This document shows positions 1-54,717 of a DNA stretch of 64,000 nucleotides, piece by piece. The position numbers were made by a program, and so were the translations under genes. This DNA comes from Candidatus Azambacteria bacterium (GTDB lineage Bacteria > Patescibacteriota > Minisyncoccia > UBA10092). The notes under the pieces are model-generated. The model was not told the origin of the DNA. It searched no databases and saw only the letters and a list, made by a program, of their open reading frames with translations. Location of the stretch: contig JACRAJ010000001.1 of the NCBI GenBank assembly GCA_016213445.1, positions 14,203 through 78,202 on the forward strand, given 5' to 3'. How positions within the stretch are numbered: position 1 is the stretch's first letter; every line of letters starts with the position of its first letter.

Positions 1-1088
1 TTCCATTCAAAGTTTTTACTTATCCATTCGCGGCCGGCTTTTCCGAATTTTTCCCTAAGGCCTTTATTTTCAATCAATTCTTTTATTTTTCCCGCCAGCA
101 TTTCCGGGTTATGCGGTTCAACCAAAAAACCATTCTCGCCATCTTTAACTAAATCGGGAATGCCTCCGACTCGCGTTGCCACCACCGCTTTCTCCATCGC
201 GAGCGCCTCCATAATAGAGCGGCCGAAGCCTTCATGCCAGGATGGATAAATAAAAATATCAATTTGCGCCAATGCCGCCGGCACTTTGCCGTAAGGCGCA
301 AAGCCGCGCCATTCTATTTTATCATTTATCTTTAATTTATCGGCTATTTTTTCAAGCCGCGGCCGAAGCGGCCCGTTTCCAAAAATTAATGCTTTAAAAT
401 TTTCTTGCCCGCCATAATCTTGATGAAGGCGGGAGATTGCCGCCAATAAATCTTCCAATCCTTTGCCGTCAACCAACCTGCCGATATAACCTAAAGTTAT
501 CACCGCCTCATCCTCCTTTTTATAGGTTTCGGAAACCCATGAATCCGGATTGAATAACTTCAAATCGACGCGAAGCGATACGAGGCGAATTTTATTTTCC
601 GGAATTCCCCGGCTCTTAACCTGATCGAAAATCGCGCGGCTGATAACTCTCACGCGATCGGCCTTCCGCATAACAAATCGGCCTATTTTTTTTAAAAGCC
701 GGTTTTTTAATTTTTCTTTTTCATTTTTTCTAAAAATTTCCCCTTGGATTTCAACAACAGCTTTGACGCCGGTAAAAAATTTTAAAATAGCAACCGCCAT
801 GCCGCCCCCGATAACCTCCGAAGCGTCGAAAACATCGATTTTATTTTTAAGATTAAAATAAAATCCTAAAATCGCGGCCGATGTTATAAAGCACGGATAG
901 CCCAAACGGGGCAATAAATATATCGCGATATTTTTTTCTTCGCCGCGATGGAAAAAAATATCCGGCGACTGCGCGATAACAAAAAGCCTGCCGAAATAAG
1001 CGCTTAAAGACCGCCAGGTTTTTAAATCCTGTTCGTTTGAAAAAATATCTTTCGGATAAATGTGTTTTCCGATAAAACAAACGTTCAT
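1..1088 (-). CDS. Glycosyltransferase family 4 (GT-B fold); C-terminus cut by window edge
   Basis: Absent from the ORF track because it runs off the window. The minus-strand frame from ATG 1088..1086 stays open to base 1, and the ATG forms an ATGA overlap with the stop of the upstream gene. It contains the GT1/GT4 signature PSWHEGFGRSIMEALAMEKAVVATRVGGIPDLVKDGENGFLV (codon TGG at 239..237 is in frame with 1088). The listed ORF 853..1113 is a different, spurious frame. Confidence 0.8.
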   Translation of the reverse strand, partial: MNVCFIGKHIYPKDIFSNEQDLKTWRSLSAYFGRLFVIAQSPDIFFHRGEEKNIAIYLLPRLGYPCFITSAAILGFYFNLKNKIDVFDASEVIGGGMAVAILKFFTGVKAVVEIQGEIFRKNEKEKLKNRLLKKIGRFVMRKADRVRVISRAIFDQVKSRGIPENKIRLVSLRVDLKLFNPDSWVSETYKKEDEAVITLGYIGRLVDGKGLEDLLAAISRLHQDYGGQENFKALIFGNGPLRPRLEKIADKLKINDKIEWRGFAPYGKVPAALAQIDIFIYPSWHEGFGRSIMEALAMEKAVVATRVGGIPDLVKDGENGFLVEPHNPEMLAGKIKELIENKGLREKFGKAGREWISKNFEW

Positions 1089-1813
1089 TTTCTTTCAAAT
1101 AAATAATAAACATTTACGCCGAGAGGCAAAAACTTCTGAAACGGCGACCAGATAAAATCAAAAAATTTCCATATCGGCAAAGCCAAAAATTGCAAAGATT
1201 TGGGAACCCAAAAAACATAACCGAAACTCGCCGAATCGAGCAATTTAAAATCATTTTTTCCGCCGGAGGCGGATCCGCCTTTGGCGGAAAAAAGTTTTTT
1301 AATAAAGCCGGGCCGCAAAGCGACGGCGCGCATTTTCGCCAAGCTTCGCATCCAATTCAAATCACTGTAAATATTCGGAAAAACAACGATAATTTTAGCG
1401 CCTTTTTTGGTAATCCTCTTCAATTCTTCAAACAACAGTTTCGGGTCGACATATTCCCATACGCCGATGGTCAAAACCAAATCGGCAATGCCTGCCGGAA
1501 TTTCCTTTCCAAATCCGGAACCATGGATGATTTCTTTATCGCCAAAATTTGCCAATTTTTCGCGGCAAACTTTAAGCATCGGCTCCGAAACGTCAATCGC
1601 GTAAATTTTTTTGGCGTTAACTGCCGCTTGGGAATATTCGCAGGTGCCGCATCCCCAATCAACTACGATTTTTCCAACGCTTAAATTTTTAACGATATTT
1701 TTTAAAAACGGCTGCCACAAATTTAAAACATAATTTTCCAAAACCGAATTTTCGGCCCGCCTATCATAAGCCTCGGCATCGATATAATTAAAATTTTTAT
1801 CCTGATAAGCCAT
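1085..1813 (-). CDS. Class I SAM-dependent methyltransferase
   Basis: 242-aa ORF with a motif I-like VVDWGCGTCEYS and a Rossmann-type layout. Carries an in-frame palindromic insert encoding SAKGGSASGGK. Confidence 0.7.
   Translation of the reverse strand: MAYQDKNFNYIDAEAYDRRAENSVLENYVLNLWQPFLKNIVKNLSVGKIVVDWGCGTCEYSQAAVNAKKIYAIDVSEPMLKVCREKLANFGDKEIIHGSGFGKEIPAGIADLVLTIGVWEYVDPKLLFEELKRITKKGAKIIVVFPNIYSDLNWMRSLAKMRAVALRPGFIKKLFSAKGGSASGGKNDFKLLDSASFGYVFWVPKSLQFLALPIWKFFDFIWSPFQKFLPLGVNVYYLFERK
1260..1287. repeat. Near-perfect copy of the 28-bp palindrome inside the methyltransferase gene
   Basis: CCGCCGGAGGCGGATCCGCCTTTGGCGG, flanked by a T-run and an A-run; translated as SAKGGSASGGK. Confidence 0.9.
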
Positions 1814-6777: not shown

Positions 6778-6798
6778 AATAGGTTTCTGACACCTATT
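6778..6798. repeat. REP hairpin copy (AATAGGTTTCTGACACCTATT variant)
   Basis: Member of the AATAGGTGTCGGAAACCTATT family. The flanks extend the palindrome (taaaaac...gttttta). Confidence 0.8.
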
Positions 6799-10377: not shown

Positions 10378-10599
10378 AATTATTTTTCTCCTTTAATAAT
10401 AAGCTTTAATTTTTAATTAACCTTTTAATTATAATCTTTAAAATTCTGGAAATTCACCCAACCTTTCATGGCGAGTCAACCTCCATTTCCATTTGTTATT
10501 TAATGATTTCCAAACCAAAATAAAACCTCAGATTCTGTACCTGATTCGCGTCCGCCAGAGGCGGACGATTTAAGTTTTCAAAGTTCAATCCCAAACCTG

Positions 10600-11813: not shown

Positions 11814-11831
11814 AGAGTATATATGTAAAAT

Positions 11832-11919
11832 ATAGGTTTCCGACACCTATTGATTTGTTCGGGATTTACGATAGTAATTTTAATTTAAATGAGAATTCAA
11901 TAGGTGTCGGACACCTATT
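11832..11919. repeat. Composite REP doublet (two inverted REP hairpins plus 47-bp spacer)
   Basis: ATAGGTTTCCGACACCTATT (11832-11851) and AATAGGTGTCGGACACCTATT (11899-11919). The spacer is close to the reverse complement of the spacer at 17133-17179. Confidence 0.85.
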
Positions 11920-17200: not shown

Positions 17201-17232
17201 AAATATTATACTATGAAATGAAAAAACTGTCA

Positions 17233-17274
17233 GAAACAAAACAACCCCGCAAGCTTGCGGGGTTGTTTTGTTTC
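17233..17274. terminator. 42-bp perfect palindrome terminator (CCCCGCAAGCTTGCGGGG family)
   Basis: GAAACAAAACAACCCCGCAAGC|TTGCGGGGTTGTTTTGTTTC, 23 nt downstream of the stop of 17297..17980. Confidence 0.75.
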
Positions 17275-17296
17275 TTAATTCGGAACTGCCAAAAAA

Positions 17297-38401: not shown

Positions 38402-40918
38402 CTACAAAACGATATTTATCAGCCTGCCGGGCACGAATATTATCTTTTTTATCTCCCCGCCCGCGATATGTTTCTTAATCGCATCGCGGGATAAAACCAA
38501 ATTTTCAATCTCAACGCGATCAAGCCTTTTCGATACTCTGACTTTGTCGCGCAACTTTCCGCCAATTTGAATAAGCAGGTCATAATCCCCTTCTTTAATG
38601 AATTTCGGATCGTATTTCGGCCACGACTCCAGGTGTATCGATTTTTTGTTTCCCAAATTGCGCCAAAACTCTTCGGCTAAATGCGGGGCGAAAGGAGCGA
38701 TTAATTTCAAAAAAGTTCGAGCCTCCTCTTTTGAGAGATTTTCTTTTTCCATTTTATTGAATAAAATCATAAGCGCGCTTACGGCCGTATTGAACCTGAA
38801 ATTTTCAATATCTTCCCCCACTTTTTTTATGGTCTGATGCAATAATCTTTGCAGTTCCTGATTTTCAGCATTTGAAAATTGAGAATTGAAAATTGAAAAT
38901 TTAGCGTATATTCTATCCAAAAATCTCTTTATGCCTAAAATGCCGGTCGAACTCCAAGGCCCGCCCTGGCTGTATTCCCCCATAAAACACAGGTACATTC
39001 TTGCCGTATCGGCGCCATATTTTTCAACCAAATCATCGGGATCAACAATATTTCCCCTGGATTTGGACATTTTTTGGCCGTCTGTGCCGAGGATAATCCC
39101 CTGATGGCGCAAAGCCTCAAAAGGCTCGCCAAACTCCAAATAACCGCTATTTTTCAAAGCTTTGACGAAAAATCTTGAATAAAGCAAATGCATCACCGCA
39201 TGCTCGGCGCCGCCGATGTACATGTTAACCGGAAGCCAGGCGTTTAATTTTTTCTTGTCGGCAAACCGTTTTTTATTTTTCGGGTCGGCATAGCGAAGGA
39301 AGTACCAGGAAGAATCGACAAAGGTATCCATAGTGTCGGTTTCTCTTGTCGCCTTTTTTCCGCATTTCGGACATTTGGCGTTTACAAAATTTTTCGCGCG
39401 CGCCAAGGGCGACTTGCCGCCGGCAACTGGTTTGAAATTTTTAAGCGGAGGCAATCTCACCGGAAGGTTTTTTTCGGGCGCCGCAATCCAGCCGGGATTT
39501 TCAAATTCGCCTTTGGAGAATTCATTGTTTCCGGCGTTTGATTTTCCGTTTCTGATTTTGTCCGCGCAATGTTTGCAAAAAACAATCGGAATGGGCGCGC
39601 CCCAATAGCGCTGGCGGGAAACAATCCAATCGCGCATTTTATACTGCGTCGAAAAATCTCCCAAATTTTTTTCTTTCAGCCATTCGGTGATTTTTTTTCT
39701 TCCTTCGGCCGAATTTACTCCCGTAAATTCGCCCGAATTAACAATAAGGCCGCCTTCAACGTAGGGTTTGTTTTCCGGCCATTCCCGCCCCGGATCGATT
39801 ACTTTCACGATTGGCAAATTGAATTTTTTGGCAAATTCAAAATCGCGCTCATCATGCGCCGGCACGGCCATAATGGCTCCCGTTCCGTAATTCATCAAAA
39901 CATAATCGGAAATCCAGATCGGAATTTTTTCTTCATTTGCCGGATTAACGGCGTAAGCGCCGGTGAAAACTCCGGTTTTTTCACGCTCCAAACTTGTTCT
40001 CTCAAGTTCCGTTTTCAAATGAGCATTGGCGACATAATGGCGGATATCCTCTTTTTGTTCTTTCGTCGCCAGCGACTCAACCAGCGGGTGCTCCGGGGCA
40101 ATAACCAAATAGGTCGCTCCGAAAAGCGTGTCCGGCCGGGTGGTAAACACCTCAATATAGTTTTGGGATTTTGGTAATTGGGATTTGTTTAGAAATTGGA
40201 AATTAGAAATTAGAAATTTAACTTTAGCTCCTTCCGACTTGCCAATCCAATTCTTCTGCATTATTTTTGTGCGCTCCGGCCAATTTAATTTATCCAGATC
40301 TGCCAGCAGCTCATCGGCATAATCGGTTATTTTCAGCATCCATTGATCAATTTCTTTTTGAATAACCAAAGTGTCGGGATGGCGCCAACAACGGCCGTCA
40401 ATCACCTGTTCATTGGCCAAAACCGCCTGATCTTTGGGACACCAATTCGCCAGAGTTTTCTTTTTATACGCCAAGCCGGCTTCGTATAATTTTAAAAACA
40501 TCCACTGGGTCCATTTGTAATAATTCGGATCGGCGCTCACAACTTCCCTCGACCAATCGTAAATATTGCCCATGGACTTGAGCTGTTTTCTCATTGCCGA
40601 AATATTTTTATATGTCCAATCGCGAGGATGAATTTTATTTTTAATGGCGGCGTTTTCCGCCGGAAGCCCGAAAGCGTCAAAACCGATGGGGCTTAAAACG
40701 TTAAAACCTTTCATTCTTTTAAAGCGCGCGTAAACATCGGCCGGCGCATAATTGTACCAGTGGCCCATATGAAGATTGCCCGAAGGATACGGGAACATCA
40801 CCAGATGATAAAAATTGTCCTTGTTTTTAACCCGGTCTTTGGTTTTGTATATGCCGGATTTATCCCAGACTTTCTGCCACTTTTTTTCGATTTTTTCCGC
40901 GTTGCGCATTTTTTTCAA
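38402..40918 (-). CDS. leuS: Leucine--tRNA ligase
   Basis: 838 aa with PYPSGNLHMGHWYNY (HIGH) and KMSKSRGN. Full-length LeuRS with a CP1 editing domain. Two AT-heptamer inserts. Confidence 0.97.
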   Translation of the reverse strand: MKKMRNAEKIEKKWQKVWDKSGIYKTKDRVKNKDNFYHLVMFPYPSGNLHMGHWYNYAPADVYARFKRMKGFNVLSPIGFDAFGLPAENAAIKNKIHPRDWTYKNISAMRKQLKSMGNIYDWSREVVSADPNYYKWTQWMFLKLYEAGLAYKKKTLANWCPKDQAVLANEQVIDGRCWRHPDTLVIQKEIDQWMLKITDYADELLADLDKLNWPERTKIMQKNWIGKSEGAKVKFLISNFQFLNKSQLPKSQNYIEVFTTRPDTLFGATYLVIAPEHPLVESLATKEQKEDIRHYVANAHLKTELERTSLEREKTGVFTGAYAVNPANEEKIPIWISDYVLMNYGTGAIMAVPAHDERDFEFAKKFNLPIVKVIDPGREWPENKPYVEGGLIVNSGEFTGVNSAEGRKKITEWLKEKNLGDFSTQYKMRDWIVSRQRYWGAPIPIVFCKHCADKIRNGKSNAGNNEFSKGEFENPGWIAAPEKNLPVRLPPLKNFKPVAGGKSPLARAKNFVNAKCPKCGKKATRETDTMDTFVDSSWYFLRYADPKNKKRFADKKKLNAWLPVNMYIGGAEHAVMHLLYSRFFVKALKNSGYLEFGEPFEALRHQGIILGTDGQKMSKSRGNIVDPDDLVEKYGADTARMYLCFMGEYSQGGPWSSTGILGIKRFLDRIYAKFSIFNSQFSNAENQELQRLLHQTIKKVGEDIENFRFNTAVSALMILFNKMEKENLSKEEARTFLKLIAPFAPHLAEEFWRNLGNKKSIHLESWPKYDPKFIKEGDYDLLIQIGGKLRDKVRVSKRLDRVEIENLVLSRDAIKKHIAGGEIKKIIFVPGRLINIVL
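38871..38902. repeat. AT heptamer tract in leuS (GAAAATT GAGAATT GAAAATT GAAAATT)
   Basis: Translated in frame as KFSIFNSQFSN. Confidence 0.85.
40161..40222. repeat. ~60-bp AT-rich element in leuS (ATTGGGATTTG head plus GGAAATT AGAAATT AGAAATT)
   Basis: Translated in frame as FLISNFQFLNKSQLPKSQNY, directly before the conserved FTTRPDT motif. The same element is intergenic at 24771-24840 and 46321-46385. Confidence 0.85.
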
Positions 40919-41007: not shown

Positions 41008-41850
41008 TTAAAGATTAATTTTAAAAAGCTTTATCGCGTTTTCAGCCGTTCTCTCCGCCGCCGTTTCGAAATCCAAATTTTTCCATTCCGCGATTTTACG
41101 GATAACGAATTCAACAAAATCCGGTTCATTGCGCTTGCCCCTATGGGGAACCGGCGCGGCAAACGGCGAATCCGTTTCGGCAAGAATTCTGTCGATTGGA
41201 ACATATTCAACCAATTCTTTATATTGACCGGCGCCAGCCAGAGGCTGGCCGGCCTTGGGTTGGAACGTTATCGGGCCGGCAAAAGAAATATAAAATCCCA
41301 AATCCAAAAATTTCTTGGCAATTTCTTTCGAGCCACTGAAAAAATGAACGACGCCGCTACTAGCGACACGTGACATGTTACAAGCAATAAGCATGTCTAA
41401 AGCATCTTCATAAGCGTCCGCAGTCCCTGGGGTCGGCCGGCAATGGATTATAAGCGGTTTTCCTAATTCTTTCGCCAATTCGACTTGCTTTACAAAAATC
41501 TCTTTCTGCCTTTCCCTTGTCTTATGTCTCATGTCGCTTGTCGCTCTGTAGTAGTCCAATCCGCACTCGCCTATCGCGATTATTTTCGTATCATAAGCCA
41601 ATTTTTTAAAATCATTCCAATCGGAAAAATCCGCGCCATCATCCTTGGCAACATCGTGAGGGTGAATCCCGGCCGACGCCCAAATCAAATCCGGATATTC
41701 TTCGGCAAGCGCCAGTGCTTTTTGAGAATCTTGCAAATCCGTGCCGACATTTATGATTTTAACGCCGAAATCGCGAAGCTTTTTAATTATTTTTTCGCGG
41801 TCGTCATTAAATTGCGAAAAATGAAGATGGCAATGAGAATCAAATAACAT
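41008..41850 (-). CDS. tatD: TatD-family metal-dependent hydrolase/DNase
   Basis: Start set at MLFDSHCHLHF (41850); the 59 codons upstream in the track ORF overlap metG and a repeat. Carries an in-frame heptamer tract (ATSDMRHKTRE). Confidence 0.85.
   Translation of the reverse strand: MLFDSHCHLHFSQFNDDREKIIKKLRDFGVKIINVGTDLQDSQKALALAEEYPDLIWASAGIHPHDVAKDDGADFSDWNDFKKLAYDTKIIAIGECGLDYYRATSDMRHKTRERQKEIFVKQVELAKELGKPLIIHCRPTPGTADAYEDALDMLIACNMSRVASSGVVHFFSGSKEIAKKFLDLGFYISFAGPITFQPKAGQPLAGAGQYKELVEYVPIDRILAETDSPFAAPVPHRGKRNEPDFVEFVIRKIAEWKNLDFETAAERTAENAIKLFKINL
41515..41549. repeat. GC heptamer tract in tatD
   Basis: CCTTGTC TTATGTC TCATGTC GCTTGTC GCTCTGT. Confidence 0.8.
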
Positions 41851-41896: not shown

Positions 41897-43345
41897 TTAC
41901 CGGAGGCGCGGGAAAAGCGCAATAGATTTTTTACTCTCAACCGCTTCGGCGATTTTATCCGAAGTATCCGGCAAAAACGGCGCAACCAGCTTTCCGATTT
42001 CCGAAACCAGATATAAAAGAGCGCCAACTATTTTTTTGTATTCATCGGAATCCGGACTAAGCGTCCACGGTTTTTTGTCATCGACATATTTGTCGCCGGC
42101 GGCGATAATTCGCCAAATGCCATATAACGCATCGCTGAATTTAAAATCTTTCAGCGACTCGCCGATATTTTTATCCGCATCTGCAATAACGGTTTCAAAA
42201 ATTTTCGGCTCCAAAGAAATATCGGACTTCGCGGCCAGCGTTAAAACGCGGCTCGCTAAATTGCCAAGGCCTTTCGCCAGATCGGCATTATATCTTTCTT
42301 CAAACTTTTCATAAGTGAATTCGCCATCTTCTCCCGAAGGAATTTCACGCAACAAATAATATCGCAAAGCGTCGACTCCGTATTTCCCGATGATTTCAAA
42401 CGGATCGACAAGATTTCCGAGCGATTTGGACATTTTTTCCCCGCCTGCGGTTATAAAACCATGCGCCCATATCGTTTTCGGCAAAGGAAGTTTTGCCGCG
42501 AGAAGCATGCCCGGCCATATTGCGGCATGAAATCTCAAAATATCCTTGCCGATAACGTGAATATCGGCAGGCCAATATTTTTTAAACATGCCGCTTGCCG
42601 CTTGCCGCTTGCCGCTATCTTGGCCGTATCCGAGAGCGGTAATATAATTTGACAGCGCGTCGCACCAAACATATATTGTTTGGCTGTCGTCGCCAGGAAC
42701 GGGAATGCCCCAATTCAGATCTTTGCTTGGCCGGGAAAAACTGACGTCCTCCAATCCTTCATTTATTAAAGACAGAATTTCATTCTTGCGTGAAACGGGA
42801 AAAATTCGCAATTCCTCATTTTCAATTTTCGATTTTATTTCTTCCGAGTATTTTGACAGACGAAAAAAATAATTTTCTTCTTCAATAATTTCCGGCTTGG
42901 TTTTGTGAATGGCACAAACGCCTCCGATCAAGTCTTTTTCGGCAACAAACGCTTCATGCCCGGCGCAGTAAAGCCCGCGATAAGCTTTTTTGTAAATATC
43001 ACCCGAATCAACCAATGCCGACCACAATTTTTGAGCTCCCGGCCAATGCCTTTCTTGATCGGAGGTTCTTATAAAATCATCATTCGAAATATCTAAAATT
43101 TCAGCGAGTTTTTTAAATTTAGAAGAGTTTTCGTCAACCAGTTGTTTTGGAGTTTTCCCCGATTTTTCCGCCGTTCTCGCGATTTTTACGCCATGTTCGT
43201 CGGCGCCGGTTAGAAAAAAAACATCATCGCCTTTGGCGCGATGGCGGCGCGCCAAAACATCGGCTTGAACAAATTCCAAAGCATGGCCGATATGCGGGCC
43301 GGCATTCATGTAAGGTATGGAAGTGGTGATGTAAAACTTGTCCAT
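41897..43345 (-). CDS. metG: Methionine--tRNA ligase (short form, no C-terminal tRNA-binding domain)
   Basis: 482 aa with PYMNAGPHIGHALE (HIGH) and KMSKSLGN. Confidence 0.95.
   Translation of the reverse strand: MDKFYITTSIPYMNAGPHIGHALEFVQADVLARRHRAKGDDVFFLTGADEHGVKIARTAEKSGKTPKQLVDENSSKFKKLAEILDISNDDFIRTSDQERHWPGAQKLWSALVDSGDIYKKAYRGLYCAGHEAFVAEKDLIGGVCAIHKTKPEIIEEENYFFRLSKYSEEIKSKIENEELRIFPVSRKNEILSLINEGLEDVSFSRPSKDLNWGIPVPGDDSQTIYVWCDALSNYITALGYGQDSGKRQAASGMFKKYWPADIHVIGKDILRFHAAIWPGMLLAAKLPLPKTIWAHGFITAGGEKMSKSLGNLVDPFEIIGKYGVDALRYYLLREIPSGEDGEFTYEKFEERYNADLAKGLGNLASRVLTLAAKSDISLEPKIFETVIADADKNIGESLKDFKFSDALYGIWRIIAAGDKYVDDKKPWTLSPDSDEYKKIVGALLYLVSEIGKLVAPFLPDTSDKIAEAVESKKSIALFPRLR
42587..42620. 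repeat. GC heptamer tract in metG (CATGCC + 3x GCTTGCC)
   Basis: Translated in frame as DSGKRQAASGM. Confidence 0.9.
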
Positions 43346-43381: not shown

Positions 43382-43888
43382 ATGATTTTAACATCGCACA
43401 TAATAGCTTCCGGCCTTCTGGGATCAACAACTAAAAATTATTTTATAGCCGGCGCGATCGGTTTGGTTAGCCATTATATTTTAGACGCAATTCCCCACAG
43501 CGAGTATTCCTTAAACGAAGCTGCATTTCAATCTGGCATTAAAACCGGTTATTTTAAAAACAAAAAATTTTGGCGGGAAATCGCGAAAGTCGCGCTTGAC
43601 GGATTGATCGGATTCGCTTTTCTTTTTATTATTATTGCCACCGCTTTTAAAAATTATTCTCCCGAGAACAGCGGCTCGGCGGCAATTGGCGCATTTTTCG
43701 GCGTTTTGCCGGATATTTTGCAATTTCTATATTGGATAACGGGATGGCGATTTTTAAAATGGAATTCCGACTTTCAGAATTTTACGCATTATTTCACCTA
43801 CAAATGCCAAAACCGGGCTTTTCGGCCCGGAATCATCACTCAAATTGCGACGATTGCAATTATTTTTTTGACTTTATATAAAATTTAA
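43382..43888 (+). CDS. Hypothetical membrane protein (possibly YdjM/DUF457-like)
   Basis: 168 aa with 4 hydrophobic segments and LVSHYILDAIPH. Tentative. Confidence 0.4.
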   Translation: MILTSHIIASGLLGSTTKNYFIAGAIGLVSHYILDAIPHSEYSLNEAAFQSGIKTGYFKNKKFWREIAKVALDGLIGFAFLFIIIATAFKNYSPENSGSAAIGAFFGVLPDILQFLYWITGWRFLKWNSDFQNFTHYFTYKCQNRAFRPGIITQIATIAIIFLTLYKI

Positions 43889-43923
43889 ACGTTGCCGCGG
43901 CAATGTTTAAATTTTATCCGCTT

Positions 43924-50040: not shown

Positions 50041-50112
50041 CATGCGGCATGTGACAAGCGACAGGTTTTTGGAATTTATTTTCCATGTCGCCTGTCGCTT
50101 GTCGCCTGTCGC
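50041..50112. repeat. Inverted pair of GC heptamer tracts at the ileS-recO junction
   Basis: GACAAGC GACAGG (plus orientation, 50053-50065) opposes CCATGTC GCCTGTC GCTTGTC GCCTGTC (50083-50110). A 13-bp stem can form between 50053-50065 and 50091-50103. Confidence 0.85.
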
Positions 50113-53054
50113 TATTTAACTTTAACGATTCCAATCCAAATATTCCTGTTTTCGATTTTAAAATGGCGGTCAACCAACAAGCCGCCTTTGATATTTCCGG
50201 CAAATTCAAGCATTTTGGCGCCGACTTCGGCATTTAAAATATTTTGCCATTTTTGAACAACTCTTTTTAAAGCGTCATCATCGATTTTAAAATAAATTCT
50301 TATCGAGTCTTTCGGCGTCAGCGATCCGTCTTTCCTCATTCCCTGAATTTGCCGCGCCAGTTCTCTTATCATCCCCTCCTCTTTCAATTCAACGGTGATC
50401 TTCGTATCCAGCTCAAAATCTTTTTTAATATTTTTATCGAAAACAATTTCTTTAACGTTAATTTCGTCTTTAATTAAATTTAAAATTTCTTCATTTTTTG
50501 AAAATTGAAAATTAGAAATTGAAAATTTGAGCGAAGCGAGCGGTTGTCTCACCTTTATTCCGGCTTCCGCCCTTAGCGCCAATCCTTTAGCGGCGATTTC
50601 TCTCGCGAGATTCATCTGCTTCTCGAGTTTTTTATTGATCAGCTTAGCGTTTAATTTCGGATAGTCGGCCAAATGAACGCTTTCCTTATTGTCCAATTCT
50701 CGCCAAATATGCTCTGCCAAAAAAGGCGTGAACGGCGCGGAAAGTTTTGCCGTTTCTTCCAAAACCGTTTTCAAAACCGCCGCCGCGCTTTCGCCGTCGT
50801 CGCCGGAAAAACGTTTTCTCGATCGCCTCAACCACCAGCGCGACAAATCATCGATAAAATCGTCAATCGGCCGCGCCGCTTGAGTCACCTCATATTTTTC
50901 TAAATTGCAACGGACAATTTTTATAGTCTGGTTCAGTCGCGACAAAATCCACTTGTCCAACAAACTTGCCGCTTGTCGCTTGCCGCTTGCCGCTTTTACA
51001 GCATATGTTTTATAAAAAACTAAAACATTCGAAAGCGTCAAAACAAACCGCCGCAACCGATCTTCAACGTCGCGAACGGTAAAACGTTTCGATTCGCCCG
51101 GCGGATTGATGGTGAAAAAATACCACCTCAAAGCGTCAACGCCGTATTTGTCGATTATTTCCCACGGATCGACAATATTGCCTCTGGATTTCGACATCTT
51201 TTCGCCTTTTTCATCCAAAATATGGCCCAAGCAAATCACGTTTTTATACGCCGGACCTTTGCCCATTAAAGCGCCGACGGCATGAAGCGTGTAAAACCAG
51301 CCGCGGGTTTGGTCGATGGCTTCGGAAATAAAATCGGCCGGATAATTAAATTTATCGCTTGCCGCCTGCCGCCTGCCGCCTGCCGCTTGATGGGCCTGGG
51401 CAAACGGCATCGCGCCCGAATCAAACCAGACATCGATTACATCTTTAATCCTTTCCATTTTTCCCGAACACTTTTGGCATTTCAAAACCAAATCATCAAC
51501 ATAGGGCCGATGGAGATCCAATTCGCCTTCATTATTATACGGCCAGTTGTGTTCTCCTTTTTTAAGTTTTTTCGCGGAAAATTTATCCAGCTCCCCAAGC
51601 GAGCCGACAATGCGCTCGCTTTTGCATTTTTCGCATTGCCAAACCGGAAGAGGCGTTCCCCAATATCGTTCCCGGGAAATCGCCCAATCTTTTATTTCGT
51701 TCAGCCACTCGCCGAATCGTCCGTTTTTTATGTGCGAAGGAATCCAATTTATTTTTTTATTGTTGGCGACAAGTTTTTTCTTCAGCTTTTCCATTCTTAT
51801 AAACCAAGAGGATTTGGCGTAATATAAAAGCGCGCTGCGGCAGCGCCAGCAAAAAGGATAATCGTGTTCGTATTTTTTTGACTTAACGAAAGCGCCTGAT
51901 CGCTTCAAATAATCGATTATCAAATTTTCCGCTTCCGAAGATTTGACTTTCAAACCTTTCAAACCTGCGCCGAAATCATCGATGAATTTTCCTTCCAAAT
52001 CGACGGTGTGATATTTGGGAAGCCCCGTTTTCGCGCCGAGATTGAAATCGTCAACGCCGTACATCGGCGCAATATGAACAATGCCGGTCCCTTCCTTGGT
52101 ATTTACAAAATCGGCATTATAAATCTTATGGGAATTTTTCGAATTATTTTTTGAAACGTCAAAAAGCGGTTCGTATTTCAAACCGATAAGATTTTTTCCC
52201 GCGGTGAAAATCGATTTCTTTTTCGGCTCTTCCATATTAATGTCATCCTTGAGGCTCTCGGCGAAAATAAAAATATCGCCGTTATCAAGCTCCAAAATTT
52301 CATAATTTACCTTGGCGCCCGCCGCCAAAGCGGCATTTCCCGGCAGTGTCCACGGCGTTGTCGTCCACGATAAAACATAAGTAGCGCCGGTTGTTGCAAA
52401 ATCGCCGCCTTTGGTTTTTAGTTTCTGCCCCGGCTTTAACTTGAACTTCACGTAAATCGAATTTTCGGAAACTTTTTCATAACCTTGGGCCACTTCATGG
52501 CTTGAAAGCGCCGTGCCGCAGCGCGGGCAGTAAGGCACAACTTTAAAATCTTTATAGAGAAGTTTTTTCTTCCAAACTTGCGACAAAATATGCCACAAAG
52601 ATTCGATATAATGCGGTTCATAGGTGATATATGGATTTTTCAAATCCAGCCAAAAACCGACGCGCTCGGTTAATTTATCCCACTCTTCTTTATACTTCCA
52701 AACGGTTTCCTTGGCTTTCTCATTGAATTTTCCAACGCCGTATTTTTCAATGTCTTTTTTATTTTTAAGCTTCAATTCCTGTTCAACCTGAAGCTCTATC
52801 GGAAGGCCGTGCGTGTCCCATCCCGCTCTGCGGCCGACGTAAAAACCGGCCATTGTTTTGTAGCGGCAAATAAGGTCTTTGTAGACCCTCGTTAAAACAT
52901 GGTGAATTCCGGGCCGGCCGTTGGCCGACGGCGGCCCTTCGTAAAAAACAAATTTCTTCGCTTTGGCGCGATTTTTCAGGCTCTTTTCAAAAATCTGTTC
53001 CCGCTTCCAATATTCCAGAATTTTTTCTTCAGTTTTTGGATTGAACAATTCCAT
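50112..53054 (-). CDS. ileS: Isoleucine--tRNA ligase
   Basis: 980 aa with PSANGRPGIHHVL (HIGH) and KMSKSRGN. Two GC-heptamer inserts and one AT-heptamer insert. Confidence 0.97.
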   Translation of the reverse strand: MELFNPKTEEKILEYWKREQIFEKSLKNRAKAKKFVFYEGPPSANGRPGIHHVLTRVYKDLICRYKTMAGFYVGRRAGWDTHGLPIELQVEQELKLKNKKDIEKYGVGKFNEKAKETVWKYKEEWDKLTERVGFWLDLKNPYITYEPHYIESLWHILSQVWKKKLLYKDFKVVPYCPRCGTALSSHEVAQGYEKVSENSIYVKFKLKPGQKLKTKGGDFATTGATYVLSWTTTPWTLPGNAALAAGAKVNYEILELDNGDIFIFAESLKDDINMEEPKKKSIFTAGKNLIGLKYEPLFDVSKNNSKNSHKIYNADFVNTKEGTGIVHIAPMYGVDDFNLGAKTGLPKYHTVDLEGKFIDDFGAGLKGLKVKSSEAENLIIDYLKRSGAFVKSKKYEHDYPFCWRCRSALLYYAKSSWFIRMEKLKKKLVANNKKINWIPSHIKNGRFGEWLNEIKDWAISRERYWGTPLPVWQCEKCKSERIVGSLGELDKFSAKKLKKGEHNWPYNNEGELDLHRPYVDDLVLKCQKCSGKMERIKDVIDVWFDSGAMPFAQAHQAAGGRRQAASDKFNYPADFISEAIDQTRGWFYTLHAVGALMGKGPAYKNVICLGHILDEKGEKMSKSRGNIVDPWEIIDKYGVDALRWYFFTINPPGESKRFTVRDVEDRLRRFVLTLSNVLVFYKTYAVKAASGKRQAASLLDKWILSRLNQTIKIVRCNLEKYEVTQAARPIDDFIDDLSRWWLRRSRKRFSGDDGESAAAVLKTVLEETAKLSAPFTPFLAEHIWRELDNKESVHLADYPKLNAKLINKKLEKQMNLAREIAAKGLALRAEAGIKVRQPLASLKFSISNFQFSKNEEILNLIKDEINVKEIVFDKNIKKDFELDTKITVELKEEGMIRELARQIQGMRKDGSLTPKDSIRIYFKIDDDALKRVVQKWQNILNAEVGAKMLEFAGNIKGGLLVDRHFKIENRNIWIGIVKVK
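50496..50530. repeat. AT heptamer tract in ileS (GAAAATT GAAAATT AGAAATT GAAAATT)
   Basis: Translated in frame as KFSISNFQFSK. Confidence 0.85.
50963..50998. repeat. GC heptamer tract in ileS
   Basis: AACTTGCC GCTTGTC GCTTGCC GCTTGCC; translated as AASGKRQAASL. Confidence 0.9.
51357..51391. repeat. GC heptamer tract in ileS
   Basis: GCTTGCC + 3x GCCTGCC + GCTTGAT; translated as QAAGGRRQAASDK. Confidence 0.9.
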
Positions 53055-53058
53055 ATTT

Positions 53059-54717
53059 TTACATCTTATCAGGAGCTTTGATGCCCATCAAGCTTAAAAC
53101 GTTCGCCAAAACGATTTTGGCTGACAAAACCAACGCCAGACGCGCCGATGTCAGATTTTTATCTTCCGTAATCACTCGTTCCTTTTCGTAAAAATTATGG
53201 AACTCCCGCGCCAGGTCAAGAGCATAGCGCGGCAAACGATGCACTTCATAATTTTCCGCAATCTCCGCCAATAACTCCGGATATTCAACTAATTTTCTAA
53301 TCAAATCCAGCTCGCTCTTTTCTTTCAATATTTCTATATTTGCCGCATGTCGCTTGTCGCTTGTCGCTTGTCGCAAAATGCCGGAAATTCTCGCGTGCGC
53401 GTATTGAACGTAATAAACCGGGTTTTTTTGCGAGCGTTCTTTCGCCAAGGCGATGTCGAAATCCATGTGAGTATTCGGCGAATACATCAAAAAGAAAAAT
53501 CGCGCGGCGTCAAGTCCAACCTCATTAACCAATTCTTCAAGCGTGACAAAAGTTCCGGCGCGTTTGGAAATCTTAAAGCTTTCGCCGCCTTTTACGAGGC
53601 GCACCAATTGAGTGATGATAATTTCCAAATTATCTTCCGGAATGCCCAAAGCCTTGAGCGCCGCTAAAAGCCGCGGCGCGTAGCCGTGATGATCGGCGCC
53701 CCAAATATCAATTGCCTTGTCGAATTTCCTGATTTTAAATTTGTCAAAATGATAAAGAATGTCCGACAAAAAATAAGTTTCCGAACCGTCCTTTTTTATC
53801 AAAACTCTGTCCTCGCTGTCGCCAAGGCTTGATGTTTTCATCCAGGTGGCGCCGTCTTTTTCATAAACAAACCGGCCATCGATTAATTCCCCCATTACTT
53901 CTTCATATATTCCTTGCCGCTTGCCGCTTGCCGCTTGCCGCTTGTCCGCGTAGAGGGTTTTTTCAGAAAACCAAACGTCGAATTTTATTCCCAGCCGTTT
54001 TATCGCCGGCTTGATATATGTTTTTAAAATCAATTCAACCGCTTTTTGACCGGCTTCTCCAACATTCAATTTTTTATCTATTTTCTCCGCCAGTTCATTA
54101 ACATATTCCCCGCGATATAAATTTTCCTCCATGTCGCATGTCGCATGTCGCATGTCGCTTTGCGCCGATTTAATCGACCGCCCTAAATTTAAAACCTGCT
54201 CGCCCCTGTCATTAATATAATACTCGCGCGCGACCTTGTTTCCCTGTGTTTCTAAAACATTTGCCAGCGCATCGCCGTAAAATCCGCCGCGGCCATTGCC
54301 GATAGTTAATGGCCCCGTGGGATTGGCCGAAATAAATTCAACCTGAATCTTTCTTCCGCCGCCGTTTTTGGAAAACCCATATTTATTCTTTCCGCCAAAG
54401 GCGGATCCGCCTTTGGCGGACAAAATTTCTTCCAACTGCCGAAACAAATATTCCGGCGACAGAAAAAAATTTATAAAACCGTTTTTATTTTCGATTTTTG
54501 AAAAATCGAGAACGTTTTGTTTTTTCAATTCGGCGACCAAATTTTCAGCTATCTCTTGCGGCGATTTTTTGAGAAATTTTCCGAGCAAAAAAGCGGCGTT
54601 GGCGGTATAATCGCCATGTTCTTTATTTTCCGGAATTTTAACCGAAATATCGCCCTTGAAATCGGGGGTTAACTTCCGGATAATGCCATAAAGATGCGTT
54701 TTTACAAGCTCTTTCAT
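53059..54717 (-). CDS. argS: Arginine--tRNA ligase
   Basis: 552 aa with EFISANPTGPLTIGNGRGG and a C-terminal DALR anticodon-binding domain. Three heptamer inserts and one palindrome insert. Confidence 0.95.
   Translation of the reverse strand: MKELVKTHLYGIIRKLTPDFKGDISVKIPENKEHGDYTANAAFLLGKFLKKSPQEIAENLVAELKKQNVLDFSKIENKNGFINFFLSPEYLFRQLEEILSAKGGSAFGGKNKYGFSKNGGGRKIQVEFISANPTGPLTIGNGRGGFYGDALANVLETQGNKVAREYYINDRGEQVLNLGRSIKSAQSDMRHATCDMEENLYRGEYVNELAEKIDKKLNVGEAGQKAVELILKTYIKPAIKRLGIKFDVWFSEKTLYADKRQAASGKRQGIYEEVMGELIDGRFVYEKDGATWMKTSSLGDSEDRVLIKKDGSETYFLSDILYHFDKFKIRKFDKAIDIWGADHHGYAPRLLAALKALGIPEDNLEIIITQLVRLVKGGESFKISKRAGTFVTLEELVNEVGLDAARFFFLMYSPNTHMDFDIALAKERSQKNPVYYVQYAHARISGILRQATSDKRHAANIEILKEKSELDLIRKLVEYPELLAEIAENYEVHRLPRYALDLAREFHNFYEKERVITEDKNLTSARLALVLSAKIVLANVLSLMGIKAPDKM
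53345..53379. repeat. GC heptamer tract in argS
   Basis: GCATGTC + 3x GCTTGTC; translated as RQATSDKRHAA. Confidence 0.9.
53911..53946. repeat. GC heptamer tract in argS
   Basis: TCCTTGCC + 3x GCTTGCC + GCTTGTC; translated as ADKRQAASGKRQG. Confidence 0.9.
54129..54163. repeat. GC heptamer tract in argS (GCATGTC variant)
   Basis: CCATGTC + 3x GCATGTC; translated as QSDMRHATCDME. Confidence 0.9.
54392..54419. repeat. 28-bp perfect palindrome CCGCCAAAGGCGGATCCGCCTTTGGCGG in argS
   Basis: Identical to its own reverse complement; translated in frame as SAKGGSAFGGK. A near-identical copy lies at 1260-1287. Confidence 0.95.

What the first reader, a model, noticed from the sequence alone, without database searches (positions are those of the whole stretch)
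54392..54419. 28-bp perfect palindrome resembling a bidirectional terminator, translated as SAKGGSAFGGK inside two genes
CCGCCAAAGGCGGATCCGCCTTTGGCGG is its own reverse complement. It lies in frame in argS, and with 2 substitutions in the methyltransferase gene at 1260-1287, where it is flanked by T6 and A6 like an intrinsic terminator.

More degenerate relatives share the arm CCGCCTTNGGCGGAAAA:
- 31503-31517 in the membrane protein (FSAQGGPVSGW).
- About 36266-36298 in the giant protein (FSAEGGPASVW).
- 10553-10575 as an intergenic hairpin.

Because the element is palindromic, it encodes the same Gly/Ala/Ser-rich peptide in either orientation.
Basis: seen in the sequence. Interest (0 to 1): 0.65.

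Follow-up and report, generated by a model that had tools for sequence, protein, structure and literature searches.

The report
30-bp double-hairpin insertion element in genes
The palindrome is one copy of a tiny (30-base) GC-rich double-hairpin DNA element that has been copied, without breaking the reading frame, into essential genes of many uncultivated bacteria, adding a harmless ten-residue Gly/Ser/Ala loop; it is not a terminator and not a conserved protein motif.

Summary
The 28-mer at 54392-54419 is a perfect palindrome and has a 2-mismatch twin at 1260-1287.

The true unit is 30 bp, made of two abutting 15-nt hairpins: TCCGCC-NRA-GGCGGA and TCCGCC-TYN-GGCGGA. Orthologue and DNA alignments show a clean 30-bp (10-codon) insertion at a T-run|A-run junction with no target duplication. 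Insertions arose independently at the identical nucleotide in distant lineages of both argS and the methyltransferase gene.

The same element occurs in at least 120 species genomes. Most are CPR/Patescibacteria; others include Omnitrophota, PVC and Ignavibacteria. Host genes include rpoB, rpoC, dnaE, dnaG, uvrB, uvrC and aaRS genes. In genes it is read as SAxGGSAxGG in 49 of 53 cases, and many copies are intergenic.

Variant copies keep per-unit pairing through compensatory stem changes. One idiosyncratic 30-mer subfamily sits in at least 11 unrelated genes, so it is copied. The T/A flank polarity is the reverse of an intrinsic terminator.

Best reading: a miniature, frame-neutral, selfish hairpin element, analogous to RPE, REP and mitochondrial GC clusters. 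It possibly moves as ssDNA through a hairpin-specific enzyme, but no mobiliser was identified. I found no published description.

The parts
54391..54420 (.). Canonical 30-bp element (TCCGCC AAA GGCGGA | TCCGCC TTT GGCGGA) inserted in argS. It encodes SAKGGSAFGG (ArgRS residues 100-109).
   Evidence: It is absent from 109 of 111 orthologues. The empty site ATTTTG|AAA is seen in L125, and an independently filled site in L126. In the AF2 model residues 101-119 have pLDDT below 50.
1259..1288 (.). Canonical 30-bp element (TCCGCC GGA GGCGGA | TCCGCC TTT GGCGGA on the + strand) inserted in the SAM-methyltransferase gene. It encodes SAKGGSASGG.
   Evidence: It is a clean 10-aa insertion relative to 118 of 119 orthologues. 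It is exactly 30 bp, lies between TTT and AAA, and has no target-site duplication.
31488..31517 (-). Hybrid copy. On the sense (-) strand it reads TCCGCC CAA GGCGGA | CCAGTC TCT GGCTGG, encoding SAQGGPVSGW near the N-terminus of the 870-aa TPR membrane protein.
   Evidence: it folds as two adjacent hairpins. The same 30-mer sits in at least 11 other genes in metagenomes.
36264..36293 (-). Decayed hybrid copy (TCCGCC GAA GGCGGG | CCGGCG TCC GTCTGG on the sense strand, encoding SAEGGPASVW) in the 1779-aa protein.
   Evidence: Its folding is no better than shuffled sequence, as expected for a decayed copy.
41234..41263 (-). Variant double hairpin (CCAGCC AGA GGCTGG | CCGGCC TTG GGTTGG on the + strand) in the TatD-family gene. 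It is read in a different frame (..QPKAGQPLAG..).
   Evidence: It appears as an insertion relative to solved TatD structures. The host gene is identified by Pfam TatD_DNase.
10551..10565 (.). Solitary single unit TCCGCC AGA GGCGGA in an intergenic region.
53059..54717 (-). Host gene argS (arginine--tRNA ligase, 552 aa).
   Evidence: 100% identical to an NCBI Candidatus Azambacteria ArgRS.
1085..1813 (-). Host gene encoding a class I SAM-dependent methyltransferase (242 aa).

Best explanation
The palindrome is a copy of a miniature, non-coding, mobile (copy-propagating) DNA element of exactly 30 bp.

**Anatomy.** It consists of two abutting 15-nt GC-rich hairpin units. Each has a 6-bp stem, TCCGCC/GGCGGA. 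The first has an NRA triloop and the second a TYN triloop, so the whole element has dyad symmetry.

**Insertion.** It inserts at the junction of a T-rich and an A-rich stretch (typically TTT|AAA, which is Phe|Lys). It makes no target-site duplication, and it hits the same sites repeatedly.

**Why genes tolerate it.**
- It is 3n long and almost free of stop codons in every frame and on both strands, so it never truncates a gene.
- Selection then retains mainly copies read as the flexible decapeptide S-A-x-G-G-S-A-x-G-G in surface linkers of proteins, plus intergenic copies.

**Status of each step.**
- Shown: the insertion, its exact limits, recurrent same-site insertion, copying of identical variants into unrelated genes, the frame bias, maintenance of the hairpins by compensatory changes, and the cross-phylum distribution.
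- Inferred: the element is selfish or neutral rather than functional in situ.
- Inferred: it moves as single-stranded DNA recognised through its hairpins by an enzyme supplied in trans, of the HUH/Y1 type (IS200/IS605-RAYT-like peel-and-paste). That mechanism would explain the lack of duplication, the clean empty sites and the strand bias of the asymmetric subfamily. The enzyme itself was not identified.

The element is not an intrinsic terminator.
For: **A clean insertion**
- The insert is 10 aa / 30 bp and is absent from nearly all orthologues. Empty sites are TTT|AAA and ATTTTG|AAA, with no duplication.

**Independent hits at the same nucleotide**
- P0122 is filled, but its relatives at 92% identity are empty.
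- P0027 and P0047 are filled, but their relatives at about 86% identity are empty.
- Neither filled lineage is sister to the window.
- In an orthologous glycosyltransferase the same site is filled in opposite orientations in L123 and L127.

**Copying**
- The idiosyncratic 30-mer TCCGCCCAAGGCGGACCAGTCTCNGGCTGG, which contains a T.G mispair, is found at 16 metagenome loci. These fall in at least 11 unrelated genes, plus the window.

**A DNA-level feature, not a protein motif**
- The codons are identical in every copy. Given this genome's codon usage, the chance of that encoding is about 7e-5.
- Copies also occur in the two other frames and in intergenic DNA.

**Hairpins are maintained**
- A mismatch-based search, which did not require pairing, and a structure scan both find variants with compensated stems: CCTCC/GGAGG, TCGCC/GGCGA, GCGCC/GGCGC, CGGCC/GGCCG and CAGCC/GGCTG.
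- These variants keep the NRA/TYN loops and the T/A flanks. Shuffled sequence gave 0 such hits.
- Loop position 3 is A in 95% of copies.

**Frame tolerance**
- 49 of 53 genic copies are read as SAxGGSAxGG.
- Stops occur in only 29 of 744 strand-frames.
- In the AF2 model the insert lies in a linker with pLDDT below 50.

**Breadth**
- The element is in at least 120 species genomes, against roughly 0.05 expected by chance (my estimate).
- Hosts include DnaG, AspRS, PheT, UvrB, ValRS, Mfd, UvrC, DnaE, RpoC and RpoB.

**Strand bias**
- In 11 of 11 genic and 2 of 2 intergenic copies of the asymmetric subfamily, the T.G strand is co-oriented with local genes.
Against: - **No mobilising enzyme was identified.** The only Y1/RAYT-like gene in the window (16407-17087) is flanked by its own, different hairpin repeat, AATAGGTGTCGGAAACCTATT. 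Only 1 of 127 related loci holds a homologue, and it has no CCGCC hairpins beside it.
- **The element may be too small.** At 30 bp it leaves no room for the guide and cleavage sequences that IS200/IS605 ends use.
- **Another route fits equally well.** Template switching on the A/T microhomology of the flanks, with no enzyme needed, would also explain the absence of duplication and the T|A targets.
- **Cross-phylum identity of the stems is odd for a parasite of a lineage-specific transposase.** It could instead reflect a conserved cellular factor or an in-situ function.
- **The strand bias has other explanations.** It could come from RNA-level or peptide-level selection instead.
- **Movement and translation were not observed.** There are no reads showing excision or insertion, and translation of the insert is assumed, not shown.
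Confidence: 0.6

Rival explanations
1. The element spreads without any dedicated enzyme. A nascent strand ending in a T-run switches template to a donor copy that has the same T-run/A-run flanks. It copies the 30-bp hairpin block and returns using the A-run microhomology. Hairpin-induced polymerase stalling promotes the switch.
For: - Filled and empty sites differ by exactly the 30 bp, lying between short A/T runs that are also present at other copies.
- There is no target duplication.
- Hits recur at the same A/T-rich junctions.
- No cognate transposase was found.
- Copy number per genome is low.
Against: - Microhomologies of 3-6 A/T bases are very common in these AT-rich genomes, so this model does not predict such precise hot spots.
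- It does not predict the co-orientation of the asymmetric subfamily with genes (13/13).
- It does not predict conservation of loop position 3.
- Presence in many phyla still needs horizontal seeding.
Confidence: 0.2
2. The hairpins are functional in situ and are kept by selection. The function could be an RNA structure in the mRNA (pausing, stability or processing). It could also be a palindromic DNA site for a conserved dimeric protein, comparable to parS, which is conserved across phyla and tolerated inside genes.
For: - The stems are nearly invariant while two loop positions vary freely.
- Stem changes are compensatory.
- The stems have the same sequence in many phyla.
- In the asymmetric subfamily the mispair is G.U on the sense strand in all genic copies.
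- Predicted hairpins are very stable: RNA -24 to -26 kcal/mol, z about -5.
Against: - Closest orthologues do perfectly well without it.
- Host genes and positions are unrelated.
- Older copies decay, with A.C mismatches on the sense strand as often as G.U: window 41234, L035, L095, L124 and L126.
- No Rfam family matches.
- Copies with intact stems are equally explained by selection for transposability.
Confidence: 0.12
3. It is an intrinsic, bidirectional transcription terminator or attenuator lying inside genes.
For: - It is a GC-rich hairpin next to homopolymer runs.
- The scanner lists the methyltransferase copy on the + strand.
Against: - The polarity is T-run, hairpin, A-run on both strands, so no U-tract follows the hairpin.
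- The argS copy is not flagged on either strand.
- The methyltransferase hit is antisense to the gene and relies on host-gene T's lying after the A-run.
- Copies sit in the middle of essential genes such as rpoB, rpoC and dnaE.
- Real terminator-like palindromes in the window have A-run, hairpin, T-run polarity.
Confidence: 0.03
4. It is a conserved protein feature (a Gly/Ser/Ala linker selected at the protein level), or else an assembly or sequencing artefact.
For: - The peptide is a plausible flexible linker.
- 49 of 53 genic copies use that frame.
- All genomes carrying it are MAGs.
Against: - Orthologues lack it.
- The codons are fixed at synonymous sites.
- Copies exist in other frames and in intergenic DNA.
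- Against an artefact:
  - Copies come from many studies, assemblers and long-read contigs over 1 Mb.
  - They are always frame-preserving.
  - Some are inherited by diverged orthologues with decay (L133/L139, P0027/P0047, L124).
Confidence: 0.02

Closest known systems
Rickettsia palindromic elements (RPEs)
   Same: Both are palindromic repeats inserted in frame into many unrelated, often essential genes. Both add a peptide segment compatible with protein function and are regarded as selfish DNA (summary in PMC10969869).
   Different: RPEs are about 100-150 bp and confined to Rickettsia, and they fall into several sequence families. This element is 30 bp (10 codons), made of two minimal triloop hairpins. 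It has no sequence relation to RPEs and is spread over CPR and several other phyla.
REP / REPIN elements mobilised by RAYT (Y1 HUH) transposases
   Same: Both are short GC-rich imperfect palindromes acting as doublets with dyad symmetry. Both are non-autonomous and show no target-site duplication. The proposed hairpin/ssDNA recognition is the same. The window itself carries a RAYT-like gene with its own REP-like repeats.
   Different: - REPs are extragenic and carry a GTAG or CGTC tag (PMC3733652, abstract listed). They are lineage-specific, cluster around their RAYT gene and are usually abundant.
- This element has T-rich flanks and no tag. About half of its CPR copies are inside genes.
- It is not adjacent to the RAYT-like gene, and it is shared across phyla.
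Mobile GC clusters and translational-bypass 'byp' elements of yeast mitochondria (from my own knowledge: Weiller 1989; Lang 2014; Nosek 2015)
   Same: Both are GC-rich hairpin-forming inserts of about 30-50 bp in an AT-rich genome. Both target A/T-rich sites, are sometimes located inside protein-coding genes, and spread by an unknown mechanism.
   Different: Those elements are organellar, of heterogeneous length and often not 3n, so byps must be skipped by the ribosome. Here the length is fixed at 30 and stop-free, so ordinary translation suffices. Translation was not tested here.
IS200/IS605-derived palindrome-associated elements (PATEs)
   Same: Both have hairpin ends and lack inverted-repeat transposase sites of the DDE kind. 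Both show no target duplication, insertion next to a short specific sequence, and strand-biased insertion.
   Different: PATEs are 100 bp or longer, with distinct left and right ends plus guide sequences, and they have a recognisable cognate TnpA. Neither feature is seen here.
[quoted passage not shown]
   Same: In both, the coding DNA has dyad symmetry, is horizontally distributed among unrelated microbes, and is translated similarly from both strands.
   Different: PARCELs are 25-residue domains in long tandem arrays within dedicated surface-protein ORFs. They are not single 10-residue inserts in housekeeping enzymes.

Membership tests
Intrinsic (Rho-independent) terminator | A GC-rich hairpin immediately followed by a U-tract on the transcribed strand. 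| tested here: not met
   The hairpin is present, but the flanks are 5' T-run and 3' A-run on both strands. The argS copy is not flagged. The methyltransferase copy is flagged only on the antisense strand, through host-gene T's.
Intrinsic (Rho-independent) terminator | Located at the 3' end of transcription units. | tested here: not met
   Copies lie inside argS, the methyltransferase gene and tatD. In other genomes they lie inside rpoB, rpoC, dnaE, dnaG, uvrB and uvrC.
REP / REPIN-RAYT | A short (20-40 bp) GC-rich imperfect palindrome, active as an inverted doublet. | tested here: met
   Two 15-nt hairpin units with overall dyad symmetry.
REP / REPIN-RAYT | A conserved GTAG or CGTC tetranucleotide at one end. 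| tested here: not met
   Flank positions -4 to -1 are T in 59/83/61/97% of copies. There is no GTAG or CGTC tag.
REP / REPIN-RAYT | Extragenic location. | tested here: not met
   53 of 125 genome copies lie in ORFs of at least 250 aa. In CPR, 35 of 66 do.
REP / REPIN-RAYT | A cognate single-copy RAYT gene flanked by the repeats. | tested here: not met
   The RAYT-like gene at 16407-17087 is flanked by a different hairpin, AATAGGTGTCGGAAACCTATT. The Y1 gene in L038 has no CCGCC hairpins beside it. Only 64 kb of this genome was visible.
MITE | Terminal inverted repeats with target-site duplication. | tested here: not met
   The element has dyad symmetry, but two filled-versus-empty DNA comparisons show no duplication.
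MITE | Size of about 50-500 bp, derived from an autonomous IS. | tested here: not met
   The insert is exactly 30 bp. No parent IS was found. This was not testable genome-wide.
Rickettsia palindromic elements | In-frame insertion of a palindromic repeat into unrelated genes. | tested here: met
Rickettsia palindromic elements | Consensus families of about 100-150 bp found in Rickettsia. | tested here: not met
   The element is 30 bp and occurs in CPR and other phyla.
IS200/IS605-type (HUH/Y1) ssDNA transposition | No target duplication, with seamless empty sites. | tested here: met
IS200/IS605-type (HUH/Y1) ssDNA transposition | Insertion 3' of a short conserved target sequence. | tested here: inconclusive
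   The 5' flank is T-rich (TTT in most copies), but no fixed tetra- or pentanucleotide is evident.
IS200/IS605-type (HUH/Y1) ssDNA transposition | Orientation bias relative to the replication fork. | tested here: inconclusive
   13 of 13 copies of the asymmetric subfamily are co-oriented with neighbouring genes. Replication direction is unknown for those contigs, and selection could give the same pattern.
IS200/IS605-type (HUH/Y1) ssDNA transposition | A cognate Y1 transposase that binds the hairpins. | not testable with these tools
   This needs whole-genome co-occurrence profiling and biochemistry.

The most novel reading that the evidence does not exclude
CPR bacteria, and some co-occurring phyla, may harbour an undescribed class of 'codon-quantised' 30-nt insertion elements.

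- Members would include the TCCGCC double hairpin and its stem variants (an SPxGG family and PAxGW hybrids).
- The 30-nt heptamer-repeat inserts may possibly belong too.
- A dedicated, site-specific mechanism that makes no duplication would place them at T|A junctions.
- That mechanism would systematically remodel surface loops of essential proteins such as RNA polymerase, DNA polymerase III and the aaRSs.

The conserved stems would then reflect either a broadly conserved trans-acting hairpin-specific enzyme of a new kind or an in-situ nucleic-acid function.
Probability: 0.3. Interest if true: 0.85.

Novelty: new variant of a known kind. Interest (0 to 1): 0.68.

Why it matters
- **A possible lower size limit for mobile DNA.** If confirmed, this would be the smallest mobile element I know of in bacteria: 30 bp, consisting only of two hairpins.
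- **Built to be harmless in coding DNA.** Its length is 3n, it is stop-free, and its commonest reading is a flexible Gly/Ser/Ala loop.
- **It helps explain odd inserts in CPR proteins.** It accounts for part of the short low-complexity insertions that litter CPR proteins and complicate alignment, structure prediction and phylogeny.
- **It maps permissive sites.** The copies give a natural map of insertion-tolerant positions in RpoB, RpoC, DnaE and the aaRSs.
- **It is a tracer.** It offers sharp presence/absence markers for strain tracking and for DNA exchange between CPR and other groundwater or sediment phyla.
- **It points to an unknown insertion mechanism.** That mechanism is precise, recurrent and free of target duplication, and it could be tested with oligonucleotide biochemistry.

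Tried and rejected
- **Terminator reading.** Rejected on flank polarity and scanner output.
- **Protein-motif reading.** Rejected by orthologue alignments, codon identity and copies in other frames.
- **Single long hairpin as the conserved structure.**
  - It is the MFE for perfect copies.
  - However, 4 of 5 informative stem variants compensate only within units.
  - The two loops are no more complementary than their base composition predicts (expected values are my estimate).
  - I therefore prefer two hairpins.
- **Tandem duplication of one unit.** Rejected: 0 of 129 copies have identical loops.
- **TA/TTAA-type or other target duplication.** Not seen.
- **Shared ancestry of the filled orthologues.** Rejected by identity ranks.
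- **The window's RAYT-like gene as mobiliser.** No support: it has its own hairpin family.
- **Phage vector.** Only 2 hits in IMG/VR and none meaningful in cultured phages or plasmids.
- **Rfam.** No family at the element.
- **G.U versus A.C asymmetry in decayed copies as a test of RNA-level selection.** Too few cases and mixed results.
- **Literature searches for a prior description.** None was specific.
Full report
**Observation**

The 28-mer CCGCCAAAGGCGGATCCGCCTTTGGCGG is at 54392-54419 and is a perfect palindrome. A copy with two substitutions is at 1260-1287, flanked by T6 and A6 (none in 100 shuffles). Both copies lie in minus-strand genes.
- One host is ArgRS (53059-54717), which reads ..EEILSAKGGSAFGGKNKYG...
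- The other is a class I SAM methyltransferase (1085-1813), which reads ..KKLFSAKGGSASGGKNDF...
- Both proteins are 100% identical to NCBI entries from a Candidatus Azambacteria (CPR/Patescibacteria) contig of 280 kb.

The half-site with up to 2 mismatches occurs 14 times against 3.1 expected.

**What the unit is**

Alignment of 120 methyltransferase orthologues shows a clean 10-residue insertion, SAKGGSASGG, between ..KKLF and KNDF... Only one other sequence, P0122, has it. The DNA alignment shows the following.
- A closely related empty site (L123) reads ..TTG TTT|AAA GAC...
- The filled site reads ..CTT TTT [TCCGCCAAAGGCGGATCCGCCTCCGGCGGA] AAA AAT...
- The insert is therefore exactly 30 bp, with no target-site duplication.

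In ArgRS, 109 of 111 orthologues lack the insert. The empty site is ATTTTG|AAACAA.., and the filled sites in the window and in L126 are ATTTTG[30 bp]AAG...

So the unit is 30 bp, made of two abutting 15-nt hairpins, TCCGCC-NNN-GGCGGA twice. The GGATCC at the centre is simply the junction between them.

**Independent hits at the same nucleotide**

With the insert masked, identity rankings show the filled lineages are not related by descent.
- P0122's nearest relatives (92% identical) are empty, and P0122 ranks only 6th among the window protein's relatives.
- The filled ArgRS pair P0027/P0047 has empty relatives at about 86% identity and ranks about 50th relative to the window.

The same nucleotide position was therefore hit independently in both genes. 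In an orthologous glycosyltransferase, an asymmetric variant of the element occupies the same site in opposite orientations: L123 reads SAQGGPVSGW and L127 reads PARGWSAFGG.

**Distribution**

My estimate of the chance expectation for 22 fixed bases in 596 Gb is about 0.05. All hits are MAGs from many studies and assemblers, including long-read contigs over 1 Mb.
- About 62 loci are from named CPR lineages.
- 34 are from Omnitrophota, Kiritimatiellae/Verrucomicrobia/Lentisphaerae, Planctomycetes, Ignavibacteria, Chloroflexota, Margulisbacteria and others.
- IMG/VR holds only 2 copies. PLSDB plasmids and cultured phages hold none of significance.

Host genes confirmed by Pfam include DnaG, AspRS, PheT, UvrB, ValRS, Mfd, UvrC, DnaE, RpoC and RpoB.

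**Coding context**

Of 125 genome copies, 53 lie in ORFs of at least 250 aa.
- 49 are read as SAxGGSAxGG.
- 2 are read as PPxADPPxA.
- 2 are read as RxRRIRxxR.
- The residue before the insert is mostly Phe (25 of 49).
- The residue after it is mostly Lys (26 of 49).

About 59 copies lie in short ORFs or none. The intergenic share is larger outside CPR. In a Kiritimatiellae MAG the element is one module of a composite intergenic repeat.

Among 124 exact 30-mers, an internal stop occurs in only 29 of 744 strand-frame combinations. In an AF2 model of the window ArgRS (mean pLDDT 66.7), residues 101-119 have pLDDT below 50. They form a coil between the N-terminal domain and the first strand of the catalytic domain. 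The orthologue alignment shows this linker is a hot spot for other short inserts.

**DNA-level conservation and structure**

Synonymous positions are fixed as TCC GCC. GGC GGA. With this genome's codon usage, that encoding of the peptide has probability about 7e-5.

The flanks are T-rich on the 5' side (positions -4 to -1 are T in 59/83/61/97% of copies) and A-rich on the 3' side. Loop position 3 of the first unit is A in 95% of copies, so the loops are NRA and TYN. The other two loop positions vary, and the two loops are never identical, which rules out a simple tandem duplication.

Only the CCGCC stem is enriched among 5-bp/3-nt hairpins. Two searches found variants that pair within each unit through compensatory changes while keeping the NRA/TYN loops and T/A flanks. 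Shuffled sequence gave 0 such hits.
- A mismatch-tolerant search that did not require pairing.
- A structure scan.
- Stem variants found were CCTCC/GGAGG, TCGCC/GGCGA with GCGCC/GGCGC, CGGCC/GGCCG with CAGCC/GGCTG, and CCACCC/GGGTGG.

Perfect copies fold as one long hairpin (DNA -17 kcal/mol, RNA -24 to -26 kcal/mol, z about -5 to -6). Hybrids fold as two adjacent hairpins. A related 30-bp family with C-rich stems (SPxGGSPxGG) occupies another site in methyltransferase orthologues.

**Evidence of copying**

The window copy at 31488-31517 is a hybrid carrying a T.G mispair: TCCGCC CAA GGCGGA | CCAGTC TCT GGCTGG on the sense strand. A metagenome scan for this exact 30-mer, with one N, found 16 loci representing at least 11 unrelated genes. 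By context these include a prepilin-peptidase-like protein, RNase III, DnaJ, a CCA-adding-enzyme-like protein and SerRS-like proteins.

Convergence on an identical 30-mer that includes a mispair is implausible, so the element is propagated by copying. All 11 genic copies have the T.G strand as the sense strand, and both apparently intergenic copies are co-oriented with adjacent genes.

**Not a terminator**

On both strands the order is T-run, hairpin, A-run, so no U-tract follows the stem.
- The scanner reports nothing at the argS copy.
- It reports the methyltransferase copy only on the antisense strand, using host-gene T's beyond the A-run.
- Terminator-like palindromes in the window (for example AAAACAACCCCGCAAGCTTGCGGGGTTGTTTT) have the opposite polarity.
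- Rfam has no family at the element.

**Mechanism**

The following are shown:
- a precise 30-bp insertion with no duplication at T|A junctions;
- recurrence of insertions at the same sites;
- copying of identical variants into unrelated genes;
- maintenance of the hairpins by compensatory changes;
- survival mainly in the Gly/Ser/Ala frame.

I infer a selfish or neutral miniature element. Intact stems would be preserved by selection for transposability, and insertions would be filtered by protein tolerance.

The most economical mechanism is hairpin-directed single-strand transposition of the HUH/Y1 (IS200/IS605-RAYT) type. It is seamless, makes no duplication and is strand-biased. The sense strand of genes co-oriented with replication is the lagging-strand template, where such elements act, and the window has a consistent negative GC skew with almost all genes on the minus strand.

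No enzyme is tied to the element, however.
- The window's Y1/RAYT-like gene (16407-17087) has an HUH motif HYH and a YIHLNP motif. It scores 31.6 bits against Pfam Y1_Tnp and 37 bits against NCBIfam REP_Tyr_transpos, the latter below cutoff.
- It is flanked by its own hairpin repeat, AATAGGTGTCGGAAACCTATT. That repeat has about 9 intergenic sites in the window and none in the other loci.
- Only one other locus has a homologue, and no CCGCC hairpins lie beside it.

Template switching on A/T microhomology remains a serious alternative. An in-situ RNA or DNA function cannot be excluded.

**Comparison and novelty**

The closest analogues are the following.
- Rickettsia palindromic elements share the in-frame habit but are about 150 bp and genus-specific.
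- REP/REPIN-RAYT elements share the hairpin doublet, but they are extragenic, carry a GTAG/CGTC tag and are lineage-specific.
- Yeast mitochondrial GC clusters and byps are a further analogue (from my own knowledge).
- IS200/IS605 PATEs are another.
- PARCELs are another.

The element fails defining tests for terminator, REP, MITE and RPE membership; see the membership table. Six full-text literature searches found no description. Absence from that library is not proof of novelty.

I rate it a new variant of a known kind, namely miniature palindromic insertion elements. It has these unusual features:
- a fixed 30-bp, frame-neutral design;
- site-recurrent insertion with no target duplication;
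- occupancy of essential genes;
- a cross-phylum range.

Noticed in passing
window 16407-17087 (-). Hairpins at 6778-6798, 11831-11851, 11899-11919, 16375-16395, 17112-17132, 17180-17200, 20962-20982 and 21031-21051.: A RAYT-like Y1/HUH transposase gene (Pfam Y1_Tnp; motifs HYH and YIHLNP) is flanked on both sides by a 21-nt hairpin repeat, AATAGGTGTCGGAAACCTATT. The repeat recurs, often in pairs, in intergenic regions of the window and is absent from 127 other loci. This looks like a REP/REPIN-RAYT system in a CPR genome, separate from the CCGCC element.
   Followed up: partly
window 27277-27303, 38872-38901, 40189-40218, 42589-42616, 50086-50113, 50498-50527, 50965-50995, 51356-51386, 53340-53374, 53913-53949 and 54130-54158.: Eleven tandem heptanucleotide arrays lie inside rpoB, leuS, metG, recO, ileS and argS and are translated in frame.
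- Each has 4-5 copies and spans 27-37 nt. Several are exactly 30 nt.
- Sense-strand units are AGCGACA, AGCGGCA and AATTTTC.
- The encoded peptides are SDKRQAT.., KRQAASG.. and FSIFNFQF.
- The argS array at 53913-53949 is a 10-aa insertion relative to orthologues.

This is a second, non-hairpin class of roughly 30-nt inserts. I have no explanation for why it shares the same size quantum.
   Followed up: partly
ArgRS and methyltransferase orthologues (P0005, P0008, P0021, P0032, P0180, P0221 and others); L127:3480-3520.: Other lineage-specific 10-residue inserts occur at a few hot spots of the same proteins: SPFGGSPEGG, PPAPRLRRAS, PPSHKASGGR, PPSLKLRRT, STLRQAQGK and FAKATEGK. The SP family was checked at DNA level. 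It is another 30-bp double hairpin, with C-rich stems and the loop order reversed.
   Followed up: partly
window 54285-54310 (ArgRS residues about 136-145).: The class I 'HIGH' signature is replaced by T-I-G-N (..SANPTGPLTIGNGRGG..). T138 and N141 are invariant in all 61 aligned Azambacteria-like ArgRS sequences. This is unusual for a catalytic motif.
   Followed up: no
window 17232-17275, 19063-19114 and 56743-56772; also 21053-21100 and 43878-43917.: Intergenic perfect palindromes have A-run, GC stem, T-run polarity (for example AACCCCGCAAGCTTGCGGGGTT with an AAGCTT centre, and a GCCGCGGC centre). They are the genome's likely bidirectional terminators and have the opposite polarity to the 30-bp element.
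   Followed up: partly
L006:4569-4752 and 6390-6572 (Kiritimatiellae MAG); also L003, L029 and L053.: In PVC MAGs the 28-mer is embedded in a repeat of about 185 bp (CATAGGAATTTT-[28]-ACAATCCGTCTT..) next to another long hairpin (GTCATTCCGAGCG...CGTTCAGGATGAC). This gives a BIME-like mosaic of different palindromic units in intergenic DNA.
   Followed up: partly
L123:1175-1204 versus L127:4114-4143.: The same site of an orthologous glycosyltransferase carries the asymmetric hybrid element in opposite orientations (SAQGGPVSGW versus PARGWSAFGG). This reflects either two independent insertions or an in-place inversion.
   Followed up: partly
L032:4828-7077 and L016:4444-6939.: A Saccharibacteria-labelled ValRS carries a complete histidine-phosphatase domain (His_Phos_1, residues 464-642) inside the synthetase. 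A Campbellbacteria PheT carries an NlpC/P60 domain. These are large domain insertions in aaRS genes of CPR.
   Followed up: no
window 56970-58703 (-).: A family X DNA polymerase gene (HHH_8 and DNA_pol_B_thumb domains) lies near argS. It is noted only because PolX enzymes take part in gap filling and end joining. No link to the element was established.
   Followed up: no
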